Assembly: GCF_009914755.1 (NCBI RefSeq)
Contig: NC_060927.1
Strand: one strand, 5' to 3'
DNA length: 64,000 nucleotides
From: the human T2T-CHM13v2.0 reference genome, Homo sapiens
Shown here: in pieces, positions 18,604 through 21,835 of the stretch
How the letters are laid out: the number at the start of each line of letters is the position of its first letter
Numbering within the stretch: the first letter of the stretch is position 1
Notes under the pieces: generated by a model
The model's input: only the letters and a program-made list of their open reading frames with translations
Told to the model about the DNA's origin: nothing
Databases searched by the model: none
Program-made: the position numbers and the translations under genes

Positions 18604-18959
<356 letters not shown>

Positions 18960-19540
18960 TAGAGATACCTTTTAAACTTCATTTTGGTAAGGCATTTCCA
19001 CTTGCTCTTCCCAGGAACCTTTTTGCCAAAGCTGCTAACAAACTGAATGTATAACTGATCTAAATTATGTTTCTCCACACTCCTCTCCCACCTCCTGCTT
19101 CCCTACCTGCTACAGAATCAGAAATGTGTGTTAGCCCCCAAAGTGAGGAACACAGAGCAAGGGATTCTGTGTAAAACCATGCAGAAGAATCCATCCCCTC
19201 TCCTCTCCCCCTTCCCATAAGGACATACCACCAAGTCTCTGATTATAACCATTTCTCTTCTTTACAACTCTATATAAAAACTTATGCCCCTCCCCTCAAA
19301 AAAAAAAAAAAAGGACTAGATGGAAATACACCAAAGCAATACCTGGCTTTAATAAGGTGGTTGAATTACAAATATTTTCCTTTTATTTCTTTTAATGATT
19401 TTCCATAATGAAATGTGATTTTTACCTTTTAAAATTAAATGTTTACATTAAACTATTTTTTTCTACTTTATGCTTAAAATTTTTCATAATAAAAATTATG
19501 TTTTAAAATTTCAGAGCAATTTTACCTCTTATCCTTCTGT

Positions 19541-19598
19541 ATTATTTCAGCTCAGACTGCTTTAACGAAGTGCCGTAGATCAGACAGCTTTTAAACCA
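19541..19598 (-). mobile_element. displaced 3' end of the MLT1A LTR at 20174-20480
   Basis: Reverse complement tggtttaaaagc...gttaaagcagtctgagctgaaataat matches the MLT1A 3' terminus missing from the plus-strand copy. Confidence 0.7.
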
Positions 19599-19637
19599 CA
19601 GAAATTCCTTTCTTTTTTTTTTTTTTTTTTTTTTGAG
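19599..19637 (-). mobile_element. displaced Alu 3' tail and TSD
   Basis: Reverse complement reads ctc-poly(A)-gaaaggaatttctg; agaaaggaatttctg matches agaaatacatttctg (20466-20480) at 12/15. Confidence 0.75.
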
Positions 19638-20057
19638 GTCATTTCTCTGCCAAGTAAAGTCCAGACTAGGTATTCCTACTGGGTGGGCAGCTTCCCTCCA
19701 CATGGTGACTGGGGATCCATGCTCCTGCTCCTTCCATCTTGAACTCTGAAAGTGGCACAAACACTTCCACTCATATTCTGTTGGCTGTAGTTGTCACATG
19801 GACATGGAGAACTGCAAGGGAACCTGGGGGAATGTGGTCCTGTGGTATTCCCAGGGAAAAGAGGATAGTTTTGATGACCAGCTAGTTAGTTTCTGCTACA
19901 GAAAGTGACATAATTAGAAGAATGTAAACTCAGACCAGATTTCATTTGCCAGCATACCCTTAGGAGAGACCCTTCCATCATCACCCCTTAGATTCAATGA
20001 ACTGCTCAGCCAGGGAAAAACAAGGTTTGCCATCTGCCCCAAGATCACAAGTGAACT
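19636..20057 (+). repeat. left arm of 422-bp inverted repeat
   Basis: Reverse complement of 20745-21166; only mismatches seen are 19808/20994 and 20015/20787. Confidence 0.98.
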
Positions 20058-20173
20058 AACAATCACCAAGGATTTAGAGAAGATGATATGTTTGTGTTCT
20101 GGCATCAGGAAGAATGAGGGGGTGAAGGGAAGGCCAGAGAGCAGAGGATATTAAGGTAGCAAAGGTGGGAAGG

Positions 20174-20480
20174 TGTTATAGACTGAATGTTTGTGCCTTC
20201 CTTAAATTCATGTGTTGAAATCCTAACACCCAACATGATGGTATTAGGAGGTAGGGCCTTTGTTATGTGATTAGGTCTTGAGGATGAGGCCTTCATAAAT
20301 GAGATTAGTGCCCTTATAAAAGAAACTTCAGAGAACTCCCTCACCCCTGTTGCCATATGAGGCTACAGCTAGAAGATGGCCACCTGGGGACCAGGAAGCA
20401 GGCCCTCACCGGACACCAAGTCTGCTGGCACCTTGATCTTGGACTTCCCAGCTTCCAGAGCTGTGAGAAATACATTTCTG
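20174..20480 (+). mobile_element. MLT1A0-like LTR (3' end displaced)
   Basis: tgttatagactgaatgtttgtgcc...gattagtgcccttataaaaga...ccagagctgtgagaaatacatttctg, then interrupted by Alu. Confidence 0.88.
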
Positions 20481-20746
20481 GGCTGGGCGCAGTGGCTCAC
20501 GCCTGTAATCCCAGCACTTTGGGAGGCCAAGGCGGGTGGATCACCAGGTCAGGAGATTGAGACCATCCTGGCTATATAGTGAAACCCTGTCTCTACTAAA
20601 AACACAAAAAATTAGCCAAGCGTCATGGTGGGTGCCTGTAATCCCAGCTACTCAGGAGGCTGACGCAGGAGAATGGCATGAACCTGGGAGGCAGAGCTTG
20701 CAGCGAGCCAAGATTGTGCCACTGCACTCCAGCCTGGGCAACAGAG
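20481..20746 (+). mobile_element. AluY/Sc-like body lacking its tail
   Basis: Full 5' end; gagaccatcctggcta, gagaatggcatgaacc, gagcttgcag; stops abruptly at gggcaacagag. Confidence 0.95.
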
Positions 20747-21166
20747 TTCACTTGTGATCTTGGGGCAGATGGCAAACCTTGTTTTTTCCTGGCTGAGCAG
20801 TTCATTGAATCTAAGGGGTGATGATGGAAGGGTCTCTCCTAAGGGTATGCTGGCAAATGAAATCTGGTCTGAGTTTACATTCTTCTAATTATGTCACTTT
20901 CTGTAGCAGAAACTAACTAGCTGGTCATCAAAACTATCCTCTTTTCCCTGGGAATACCACAGGACCACATTCCCCCAGGTTCCCTTGCAGTTCACCATGT
21001 CCATGTGACAACTACAGCCAACAGAATATGAGTGGAAGTGTTTGTGCCACTTTCAGAGTTCAAGATGGAAGGAGCAGGAGCATGGATCCCCAGTCACCAT
21101 GTGGAGGGAAGCTGCCCACCCAGTAGGAATACCTAGTCTGGACTTTACTTGGCAGAGAAATGACCT
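20745..21166 (-). repeat. right arm of 422-bp inverted repeat
   Basis: Reverse complement of 19636-20057. Confidence 0.98.
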
Positions 21167-21240
21167 TCAATTGTATTGAGCCACAAAAATGCTGGGGCTT
21201 GTTTGTTACAGCAGTGAGCCTACACTAACCAATAATACAC
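20901..21240 (+). mobile_element. MLT1(I/J)-like LTR; partial inverted copy lies in the left arm
   Basis: tgtagcagaaac...cacattcccccaggttcccttgcag...ggggcttgtttgttacagcag; 3' end present only on this side. Confidence 0.65.
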
Positions 21241-21624
21241 TGTTAATCTTTCATGTCTGCTAGACGTGCTTAGTAATGGTGCTCTGAATTCATGTAATTA
21301 GAAGTAAATTTGACTGCAGAGATCAAGGAAGCTCCCCTTTTTGGAGGACTTGCAACCTGAGCAATTTTGTAATCATACTACAATAGGGAGGTATTGCCCT
21401 TGATGTTTCCCATGAAATCTCATAGGATTTTCCAGATAACTGTATCTTTCCTCAATGGAAGCAGTTTTAGACAGGGAGCCTAGATTCTCTGCCCCTAATT
21501 ATCAGCAGAATGATGCATGAATCACCCAACCCCTATAAGCCTCAGAAATTATACAATCATTTTAGAGATGGACAATACCAACGGTTGTAACAACTAACTG
21601 TGGCTGAGTTACAGGTAGGGTTAA

Positions 21625-21835
21625 TCCATTAATAGACTAACTCATTTAATCTGCACAGGCACCAGTGATGTGGGTGATATTATCATTATTTTGAAAATAA
21701 GAGAAACTGAGGCACAGAGAGATTAAAACACTGCCCAAGGCCACAGCTAGTAAATATCATAATGAAATGTAATGGGCAATGTAACTCTAGGGTCAGAAAG
21801 TAAATTCTCTGGATTCTAAAATGCTGAGATTTGCA
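21625..21835 (-). mobile_element. MIR
   Basis: aactcatttaatctgcac...gagaaactgaggcacagagagattaaaacactgcccaaggccacagctagtaaat. Confidence 0.85.

What the first reader, a model, noticed from the sequence alone, without database searches (positions are those of the whole stretch)
19636..21166. Recent 422-bp near-perfect inverted duplication with 2-bp microhomology at both junctions
Seen: 19636-20057 is the reverse complement of 20745-21166 with two mismatches, around a 687-bp spacer. The arms include non-repeat sequence plus part of an ancient MLT1 LTR whose 3' end continues only beyond the right arm, so 21166/21167 is an original join. The novel junctions are ttttg[AG]gtcatt (19636-19637) and gcaacag[AG]ttcact (20745-20746); at each, the AG is shared by both parental sequences. 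Established: short microhomology with local inverted copying is the signature of replication template switching (FoSTeS/MMBIR). Inference: about 0.5% arm divergence means a young event or ongoing arm-to-arm gene conversion.
Basis: partly seen in the sequence, partly recalled or inferred. Interest (0 to 1): 0.8.

Follow-up and report, generated by a model that had tools for sequence, protein, structure and literature searches.

The report
Small inversion with duplicated end
A 1.1-kb piece of human chromosome 3 was flipped and one 422-base end of it was kept in both orientations, a clean but ordinary example of a common kind of small human rearrangement in non-coding DNA.

Summary
19636-20057 is the reverse complement of 20745-21166, with 420 of 422 bases matching and 687 bp between the arms. 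It is the only inverted pair of 150 nt or more in the window, and the arm has only these two copies in the genome.

Broken transposable elements give the ancestral state without an outgroup. The spacer ends in an Alu body that lacks its last bases and its A-tail. The missing tail (T22+G), the Alu's target-site duplicate and the rest of the MaLR LTR that the Alu had entered all lie inverted, directly left of the left arm. The right arm runs without a break into an older MLT1-like LTR.

The ancestor was therefore tail | rc(spacer) | arm | flank. One event inverted spacer plus arm (1109 bp), kept a second arm copy and lost about 11 Alu bases. Each new join has a 2-nt AG overlap.

It did not say that the spacer itself is inverted.

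The mechanism is inferred. Two microhomology-guided template switches are the most likely (~0.5). Staggered breaks with end joining, or fold-back priming followed by a spacer flip, remain open.

Age is roughly 2-5 My (CI 0.3-17) unless gene conversion keeps the arms alike. This is a new member of a known class, and interest is low to moderate.

The parts
19505..19598 (-). 3' remainder of the MST-like MaLR LTR (family name recalled), in reverse orientation. It is the part missing from the LTR fragment in the spacer. The left limit is approximate.
   Evidence: The 3' tails of 19 of 19 genomic copies of this LTR align to the reverse complement of this stretch with z>3 against shuffles. All alignments start at 19599-19612 and reach 19505-19557. 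In 17 of 19 they score higher here than on 21167-21279.
19599..19612 (-). 3' copy of the Alu's target-site duplication (reverse complement reads GAAAGGAATTTCTG)
   Evidence: It matches the 5' copy at 20467-20480 (GAAATACATTTCTG) in 11 of 14 positions. It lies between the inverted A-tail and the LTR remainder.
19613..19635 (-). The Alu's A-tail (22 T on the + strand) plus G, the severed 3' end of the Alu at 20481-20746, now inverted and 1.1 kb away from its body
   Evidence: T run 19613-19634. A/T tails of Alus in other loci align here and end at 19637 at the latest (6 alignments end at 19637). Two of two complete Alu ends found in the window read ACAGAG + 14 nt ending CTC + A run.
19636..19637 (.). 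New join 1: an AG shared by the Alu tail (..TTTTGAG) and the arm
   Evidence: derived and parental strings side by side.
19636..20057 (-). Left arm, an inverted copy of the arm. Together with the spacer it forms the 1109-bp inverted segment 19636-20744.
   Evidence: At mismatch 19808 the left arm carries A, while two independent old homologues carry T like the right arm and one carries C.
20058..20171 (+). Single-copy stretch of the spacer. Its join to the left arm (20057/8) is inferred to be ancestral.
   Evidence: 19900-20175 finds only itself and the other arm in the genome at E<=1. Ancestral contiguity is inferred by elimination, because all other ends are accounted for.
20172..20480 (+). 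5' part of the MST-like MaLR LTR, cut off where the Alu entered. 20467-20480 is the 5' target-site duplicate.
   Evidence: 39 other genomic copies at 76-80% identity, with alignments ending at query 310-331 of 331, i.e. at 20459-20480.
20481..20746 (+). Alu body ending ..CAACAGAG. It lacks the last 14 nt and the A-tail.
   Evidence: Alus of other loci align from 20475-20492 to 20746/20747 and never further. It is 80-86% identical to three other Alus of the window.
20745..20746 (.). New join 2: an AG shared by the Alu body (..ACAGAG) and the arm's inner end (..GTTAG|TTCAC in the parental join)
20745..21166 (+). Right arm, the arm in its original orientation and at its original outer join
20887..21258 (+). 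Old MLT1-like MaLR LTR (family name recalled) that runs from inside the right arm across 21166/21167 to its 3' end
   Evidence: Alignments L029 21069-21258, L033 21111-21239, L035 21055-21239, L036 21158-21257 and L038 20887-21247 are each uninterrupted across 21166/7. With matched probes, 5 of 5 run 73-92 nt beyond the right arm.

Best explanation
One lineage-specific, non-homologous rearrangement produced this locus. The ancestral order on the + strand was [inverted LTR remainder - target-site duplicate - Alu tail] | rc(spacer) | arm | [MLT1-like 3' end]. In the ancestor the Alu and its host LTR were whole and on the minus strand. In the present order, spacer plus arm (1109 bp, 19636-20744) is inverted, a second copy of the 422-bp arm remains in its original place (20745-21166), and about 11 nt of the Alu are lost, a net gain of about 411 bp. 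I put this structure at about 0.85-0.9.

Most likely mechanism (inferred, about 0.5): a replicative template switch of the FoSTeS/MMBIR kind with two switches, each guided by 2 nt. The growing + strand left its template just past the 22-nt A/T tract of the Alu tail (..TTTTGAG). It annealed by AG:CT to the opposite strand at the arm/flank border 1.1 kb ahead. It copied backwards through arm and spacer until it was 11 nt from where it had left (..CAACAGAG). It then annealed by AG:CT at the spacer/arm border and went on through arm and flank. In four-point notation the order on the ancestor is 1-3-4-2.

The product has no recognisable function. It lies in an intron of a predicted lncRNA and is a potential hairpin/cruciform and a substrate for arm-to-arm conversion and spacer flipping.
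For: Shown:
- The arms match at 420/422 and have only two copies in the genome.
- The Alu body stops at 20746/7. Its tail, target-site duplicate (11 of 14) and host-LTR remainder lie inverted at 19505-19635 (19 of 19 LTR copies, z>3).
- The MLT1-like LTR is continuous across 21166/7 (5 of 6 copies) but not across the left arm's outer end.
- 2-nt overlaps are present at both new joins. Overlaps of 2 nt or more at both joins are expected by chance with p = 0.024 under random joining.
- Complete Alus in the window have 14 nt between ACAGAG and the A run (2 of 2). Here only C, or CTC, remains, so 11 nt are missing if both overlaps are counted as Alu.

From the literature:
- Inverted duplications of under 1 kb placed within 5 kb of the other copy made up 54% of sequenced 'inversions' in the 1000 Genomes set and were judged not typically due to retrotransposition (PMC4617611, passages).
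- Human non-homologous inversions with small gains or losses have been ascribed to single FoSTeS/MMBIR events (PMC6748972, passages).
- The four-point description of template switches comes from PMC7954356 (passages).
Against: No outgroup or second human haplotype could be examined, so the ancestral state rests on transposable-element continuity alone. The join 20057/8 is called ancestral only by elimination, because the region is single-copy. Two nucleotides of overlap are also compatible with classical or alternative end joining. The product is equally well made by staggered breaks, or by a fold-back-primed duplication followed by a flip, because all four joins would be identical. The target-site duplicate is diverged (3 of 14 differ). 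In 2 of 19 LTR copies the tail scores slightly higher on the right flank than on the left (L011, L018), since the 3' ends of the two MaLR families are alike. In one search, 3 of 5 MLT1-like copies also hit the left flank for the same reason.
Confidence: 0.5

Rival explanations
1. Staggered breaks plus end joining (the model proposed for Drosophila inversions). A double-strand break occurs in the Alu tail with loss of about 11 nt, together with a pair of single-strand nicks 422 nt apart on opposite strands flanking the arm. The overhangs are filled in, the middle fragment is turned round, and the ends are joined by NHEJ/MMEJ using 2-nt overlaps.
For: The structure is an inverted segment with an inverted duplicate of ancestrally single-copy sequence at one breakpoint only. 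This is what Ranz et al. describe: 17 of 29 inversions had inverted duplications, 12 of them at one breakpoint only, with a median size of 321 bp (PMC1885836, passages). The two Alu-side ends lie 11 nt apart, as the two sides of one break would. Overlaps of 2 nt fit end joining.
Against: It requires 422 bp of duplex to be unwound between two nicks, plus a second break, all in one cell cycle. The authors themselves name the unwinding length as a difficulty. Nothing in the sequence speaks directly against it.
Confidence: 0.2
2. Two steps. (i) A break in the Alu tail is resected by more than 1.1 kb. The 3' overhang folds back on a 2-nt AG:CT match, with the 687-nt spacer as the loop, copies the arm, unfolds and joins the other end by a 2-nt match. 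This gives tail | arm' | rc(spacer) | arm. (ii) Later, recombination between the two 422-bp arms flips the spacer to today's orientation.
For: All four joins of the flipped and unflipped forms are identical, so today's sequence is compatible. Fold-back priming at resected breaks is documented, and a preprint on L1-induced breaks reports inverted duplications with 2-bp microhomology from self-annealing 3' overhangs (10.1101/2024.12.14.628481, passages; titles and abstracts of PMC10622511, PMC11724301 and PMC3907307 in the listing). Simple inverted duplications are the commonest inversion-type variant in humans. Inverted repeats drive recurrent flips (PMC6748972, PMC3961182, passages).
Against: It needs two fixed events where one suffices. 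The inverted repeats shown to drive human inversions were 654 bp to 24 kb, so 422 bp is below that range.
Confidence: 0.15
3. The event is much older than 0.5% divergence suggests (shared with distant apes or monkeys), and the arms are kept alike by gene conversion.
For: Close inverted repeats are known substrates for conversion (general knowledge). The single strand folds with 421 of 422 arm positions paired.
Against: Without conversion, P(2 or fewer differences) is 0.036 at 1.6% pairwise divergence and 0.0003 at 3%. The event must post-date the Alu insertion. The 22-nt A run of the severed tail is still uninterrupted.
Confidence: 0.1
4. The left arm is a retrocopy. A transcript through the right arm was reverse-transcribed by L1 machinery and inserted in minus orientation, the T22 run being its new poly(A) tail.
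For: On the minus strand the left arm is followed directly by C + A22. The 5' end of the copy shows a 2-nt overlap, as 5'-truncated L1-type insertions often do (recalled).
Against: The A run is followed by a target-site duplicate and the LTR remainder that belong to the Alu in the spacer, so the tail is the old Alu's own. No direct repeat flanks the left arm (inspection). The spacer's inversion is left unexplained.
Confidence: 0.02
5. Assembly or cell-line artefact: a chimeric fold-back read or a mis-join created the second arm.
For: None found. It cannot be excluded without reads.
Against: The arms differ at two positions and are separated by 687 bp. The joins show a coherent biological signature: one broken Alu, an 11-nt loss and 2-nt overlaps. 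The source is a telomere-to-telomere assembly (hub annotation).
Confidence: 0.03

Closest known systems
Small inverted duplications ('inv-dup') of the 1000 Genomes structural-variant map (Sudmant et al. 2015, PMC4617611)
   Same: The duplicated stretch is under 1 kb (422 bp). The inverted copy lies within 5 kb of the original (687 bp away). It is not made by retrotransposition.
   Different: Here the sequence between the copies is itself inverted relative to the inferred ancestor and 11 nt are lost, so it is inversion plus duplication. Whether it is polymorphic in people is unknown.
Inversions with inverted duplications at a breakpoint (staggered-break model, Ranz et al. 2007, PMC1885836)
   Same: An inverted segment is bounded by inverted copies of ancestrally single-copy sequence. 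The duplicate is at one breakpoint only, and its size is close to their median of 321 bp.
   Different: The scale differs: a 0.7-1.1 kb inverted segment against chromosomal inversions. The organism is human, not Drosophila. The mechanism is not established in either case.
FoSTeS/MMBIR template switching (Hastings et al. 2009, PMC2621351, seen as listing/abstract only) and the four-point template-switch model (PMC7954356)
   Same: There are two joins with short microhomology, copying of nearby sequence in reverse complement, and gain together with a small loss. It can be fully described by four switch points (order 1-3-4-2).
   Different: The short-range events catalogued in great apes involve tens to hundreds of nucleotides; here 1109 nt were copied. 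The disease-associated FoSTeS/MMBIR events are usually kb to Mb. No direct evidence of replication is available here.
NAHR inversions between pre-existing inverted repeats (PMC6748972, PMC3961182)
   Same: The present structure, a spacer between 99.5% identical inverted arms, is the substrate of such flips.
   Different: The arms here are a product of the event, not its cause: the left arm interrupts an Alu. At 422 bp they are shorter than the 654 bp-24 kb repeats reported to drive human inversions.

Membership tests
Small inverted duplication (inv-dup) structural variant | A duplicated stretch under 1 kb, with the copy in inverted orientation within 5 kb of the original | tested here: met
   422-nt arms, 687 nt apart. 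Criterion from PMC4617611.
Small inverted duplication (inv-dup) structural variant | Not produced by retrotransposition (no new tail or target-site duplication around the copy) | tested here: met
   The A/T run next to the left arm belongs to the older Alu, together with its target-site duplicate and host-LTR remainder. No direct repeat flanks the arm.
Small inverted duplication (inv-dup) structural variant | Spacer left in its ancestral orientation (plain insertion of the inverted copy) | tested here: not met
   The Alu body adjoins the right arm while its tail adjoins the left arm in the opposite orientation, so the spacer is inverted relative to the ancestor.
Inversion with inverted duplication at a breakpoint | The segment between the duplicates is inverted relative to the ancestral arrangement | tested here: met
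   Shown by continuity of one Alu, its target-site duplicate and two LTRs. Not confirmed with an outgroup.
Inversion with inverted duplication at a breakpoint | The duplicated sequence was single-copy before the event | tested here: met
   Only two full copies in the assembly.
Inversion with inverted duplication at a breakpoint | Ancestral arrangement seen in an outgroup species | not testable with these tools
   No primate genomes or other human assemblies are held; only the window's own assembly could be searched.
FoSTeS/MMBIR template switch | Microhomology at each new join | tested here: met
   AG at 19636-7 and at 20745-6, each shared by both parents. Chance of 2 nt or more at both joins is 0.024.
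FoSTeS/MMBIR template switch | Complex product (two or more joins) templated from nearby sequence, with gain of material | tested here: met
   Two new joins, 1109 nt in reverse complement, +422 and -11 nt.
FoSTeS/MMBIR template switch | Origin in replication or break-induced synthesis rather than cut-and-join | not testable with these tools
   The product sequence is the same under the staggered-break and fold-back-plus-flip models.
NAHR inversion between pre-existing inverted repeats | The inverted repeats were present before the inversion | tested here: not met
   The left arm sits between the body and the tail of one Alu, so it arrived with the rearrangement.
L1-mediated retrocopy / twin priming | A new poly(A) tail and target-site duplication flanking the inserted copy | tested here: not met
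   The tail is accounted for by the older Alu. No flanking direct repeat.

The most novel reading that the evidence does not exclude
The rearrangement is specific to the human lineage and may still be polymorphic, possibly in spacer orientation as well. It would then be a kilobase-scale, single-fork template switch (four-point order 1-3-4-2) that started at the 22-nt A/T tract of an Alu tail. That would link the short-range template-switch mutations of great apes (tens of nucleotides) to the common inv-dup structural variants by one process. A bolder variant is that the initiating lesion was an L1 endonuclease nick in the Alu tail that left no insertion, as suggested for some fold-back junctions in experimental L1 clones (preprint).
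Probability: 0.2. Interest if true: 0.5.

Novelty: new member of a known kind. Interest (0 to 1): 0.3.

Why it matters
The locus is a clean case in which the ancestral state, both breakpoints, the 11-nt loss and the 2-nt overlaps can all be read from one genome, because the break fell inside an Alu nested in an LTR. It could serve as a worked example, and as a test locus in ape and pangenome assemblies, for how small inversion-plus-duplication variants arise. It could also show whether 422-bp arms suffice for spacer flipping and arm-to-arm conversion. No gene, exon or annotated regulatory element is affected. The locus lies in an intron of a predicted lncRNA, and the annotated silencer is 6 kb away.

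Tried and rejected
1. I first read the LTR fragment in the spacer (20172-20480) and the LTR end right of the right arm (21167-21258) as two halves of one element split by Alu plus arm. That would have made the right arm the insertion. I rejected it because the tails of 19 of 19 copies of the spacer's LTR match the inverted left flank (17 of 19 better than the right flank), and copies of a different, older LTR run uninterrupted from the right arm into the right flank.

2. Retrocopy or twin-priming origin of the left arm (T22 as a new tail): rejected, see the rival explanations.

3. Single fold-back at one break: worked through by hand, it gives the unflipped spacer, so it can explain today's order only with a second step.

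4. Transposable-element evidence for the join 20057/8: none, since 19900-20175 is single-copy.

5. blastn at word size 9 did not pick up the short LTR tail on the left flank except in L026 and L023. Pairwise local alignment with shuffle controls was needed.

6. Rfam scan of 19000-21800: no family at gathering score.

7. Earlier findings of this scan were not open to the session.

8. Literature: no paper holds 'LOC107986081'. Searches found papers on the class but none naming this locus. Coordinates could not be searched, and supplementary tables of variant catalogues were not opened.

All comparisons were pairwise with genomic copies, so the family names (MST-like, MLT1-like, Alu) are recalled labels, not tool results.
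Full report
**Observation.** Arms 19636-20057 and 20745-21166 are 422 nt each with 687 nt between them. A base-by-base comparison finds two mismatches: 19808 A against 20994 (reverse-complement T), and 20015 G against 20787 (reverse-complement A). That is 99.5% identity. It is the only inverted pair of 150 nt or more within 10 kb in the 64-kb window. A search of the whole assembly with the arm returns six matches. Two are the arms themselves. The other four are weak partial hits (71-78% over 89-138 nt) to an old repeat inside the arm. The sequence was therefore single-copy before the duplication.

**Anatomy of the spacer and the left flank.** The spacer has three parts:
- a single-copy stretch, 20058-20171 (only the stretch itself and the other arm match);
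- the 5' part of a MaLR LTR, 20172-20480 (39 other copies at 76-80%, out of 6117 first-look candidates of which 40 were scored; I call it MST-like from recall);
- an Alu body, 20481-20746.

In one search, Alus of other loci align to this body and stop at 20746 or 20747, never further. The body ends ..CAACAGAG. Two of two complete Alu ends found in the window by pattern have 14 more nucleotides ending in CTC and then an A run, so this Alu lacks its end and its tail.

The missing pieces lie directly left of the left arm, in reverse orientation:
- G at 19635 and 22 T at 19613-19634. A/T tails of other loci's Alus align here and end at 19637 at the latest (six alignments end there).
- 19599-19612, whose reverse complement GAAAGGAATTTCTG matches the 14 nt just before the Alu body (GAAATACATTTCTG, 20467-20480) in 11 of 14 positions. 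This is the Alu's target-site duplication.
- 19505-19598, to whose reverse complement the 3' tails of 19 of 19 copies of the spacer's LTR align with z>3 against shuffles, always starting at 19599-19612. In 17 of 19 they score higher here than on the right flank 21167-21279; the exceptions are L011 and L018.

One Alu nested in one LTR has therefore been broken. One side of the break is now next to the right arm, and the other side is next to the left arm and turned round.

**Anatomy of the right flank.** A different, older MaLR LTR (MLT1-like, name recalled) runs from inside the right arm across 21166/21167 to about 21258. Six genomic copies were examined:
- L029 (21069-21258), L033 (21111-21239), L035 (21055-21239) and L038 (20887-21247) align uninterrupted across the join, with 56 nt or more inside the arm.
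- L036 crosses with only 9 nt inside (21158-21257).
- L034 starts at 21202 and does not cross.

With matched probes (150 nt of arm plus 130 nt of flank), all five crossing copies run 73-92 nt beyond the right arm. On the left arm, two stop at the arm's end. Three hit only the flank behind the A run, which is the similar 3' end of the other LTR.

**Reconstruction.** Write Y' for the inverted tail side, S for the spacer, A for the arm in right-arm orientation and R for the right flank. Three adjacencies follow:
- Alu continuity requires S next to Y.
- LTR continuity requires A next to R.
- The only ends left, the arm's inner end and the start of the spacer, are joined today at 20057/8.

The single-arm ancestor is therefore Y' S' A R, and the present sequence is Y' A' S A R. 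The block S'A (1109 bp) is inverted and A is present a second time. If both AG overlaps are counted as Alu, 11 of the 14 terminal Alu nucleotides are missing, for a net gain of about 411 bp. The ancestral status of 20057/8 is an inference by elimination, and no outgroup was available.

**Junctions.**
- Join 1: the derived sequence reads ..TTTTTG AG GTCATT... The arm's parental sequence reads ..AATTGA AG GTCATT.. (reverse complement of 21153-21182). Complete Alu tails in the window read, in reverse complement..TTTT GAG.
- Join 2: the derived sequence reads ..GCAACAG AG TTCACTTG... The parental sequence reads ..GATTGTT AG TTCACTTG.. (reverse complement of 20043-20072). Complete Alus in the window read ..ACAG AG C...

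Each join thus has a 2-nt overlap. Under random joining, an overlap of 2 nt or more has probability 0.156 at one join and 0.024 at both (standard formula recalled). This is mild evidence that microhomology was used.

**Mechanism (inferred).** The simplest single event is a template switch with two switches:
1. Synthesis leaves the template just after the A/T tract of the Alu tail.
2. It lands by AG:CT on the opposite strand at the arm/flank border, 1.1 kb ahead.
3. It copies back through arm and spacer to within 11 nt of the starting point.
4. It lands by AG:CT at the spacer/arm border and continues.

In the four-point notation used for great-ape template switches (PMC7954356, passages) the order on the ancestor is 1-3-4-2. 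Human non-homologous inversions with small gains and losses have been ascribed to single FoSTeS/MMBIR events (PMC6748972, passages).

Two rivals give exactly the same product:
- Staggered breaks with fill-in and end joining, as proposed for Drosophila inversions. There 17 of 29 inversions carry inverted duplications, 12 of them at one breakpoint only, with a median size of 321 bp (PMC1885836, passages).
- A fold-back-primed inverted duplication at a resected break in the Alu tail (precedents passages and in the listing), followed by a flip of the spacer through recombination between the arms. Worked through by hand, a single fold-back gives the unflipped spacer, so this route needs two events. 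The inverted repeats known to drive human inversions are 654 bp or longer.

My odds are about 0.5 for the one-step template switch, 0.2 for staggered breaks and 0.15 for the two-step route. The remainder goes to artefact and other explanations.

**Rejected readings.** The T run is not a new retrocopy tail. It is followed by the old Alu's target-site duplicate and host LTR, and no direct repeat flanks the left arm. The arms did not pre-exist as inverted repeats, because the left arm interrupts an Alu. An assembly artefact is unlikely given two arm differences, the spacer and a coherent break signature, but reads were not available.

**Age.** There are two differences in 422 sites and no CpG in the arm. 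With per-lineage rates of 0.5 or 1.0 x 10^-9 per year (general knowledge), the point estimates are 4.7 or 2.4 My, with Poisson 95% limits of 0.3-17 My. If the arms had been diverging as long as sequences that differ by 1.0-1.2% (roughly human-chimpanzee, general knowledge), two or fewer differences would be seen with probability 0.12-0.21. At 1.6% the probability is 0.036, and at 3% it is 0.0003. Without gene conversion the event belongs to the African-ape or human lineage. It may or may not be shared with chimpanzee. It post-dates the Alu insertion. At 19808 the left arm carries A, while two independent old homologues carry T like the right arm and one carries C. This is weak evidence that the left arm holds the derived base.

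**Properties and context.** As a single strand (DNA parameters) the 1531 nt fold to -650 kcal/mol, with 421 of 422 arm positions paired to their mirror partner. The locus is therefore a potential hairpin or cruciform, tempered by the long spacer. No Rfam family matches 19000-21800. By the hub's annotation the locus lies in an intron of a predicted lncRNA, with nothing functional annotated within it.

**Comparison with what is known.** In the 1000 Genomes map, inverted duplications made up 54% of sequenced inversion-type variants. Nearly all involved stretches under 1 kb placed within 5 kb of the other copy, and they were judged not typically due to retrotransposition (PMC4617611, passages). 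This locus fits that class in size and spacing. It differs in that the intervening sequence is inverted and 11 nt are lost. It equally fits the 'inversion with inverted duplication at one breakpoint' class.

No paper in the searchable library names the lncRNA. The class searches did not surface this locus. Variant-catalogue supplements were not opened, so it may well be listed there.

**Verdict.** The locus is a new member of a known kind, with low-to-moderate interest (0.3).

Noticed in passing
window 18642-18987 versus 20474-20743: A second Alu on the minus strand forms diverged inverted matches (85-86% over 72-137 nt) with the spacer's Alu, 1.5-1.8 kb away. In the inferred ancestral orientation the two Alus would have been direct repeats. 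It plays no evident part in the rearrangement.
   Followed up: partly
window 19298-19327 versus 19604-19633: An A15 run with adjoining bases pairs loosely (77%) with the T run of the severed Alu tail (pair I6). This is probably low-complexity chance.
   Followed up: no
L003, L004, L005 (G000 contig C1 at about 205.58, 144.11 and 121.30 Mb): Three chromosome-1 loci give identical scores and identities to the old repeat inside the arm, so they are copies of one segmental duplication and count as one independent homologue.
   Followed up: no
window 19636-20057: The 422-nt arm contains no CpG at all, at 47% G+C. This lowers its expected mutation rate and makes the age estimate slightly conservative.
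   Followed up: no
window 19613-19634: The severed Alu tail is still an uninterrupted run of 22 T. That is long and pure for an Alu whose body is only 80-86% identical to neighbouring Alus. Long A/T tracts are plausible stall or nick sites, and the break lies 1-3 nt from this run.
   Followed up: partly
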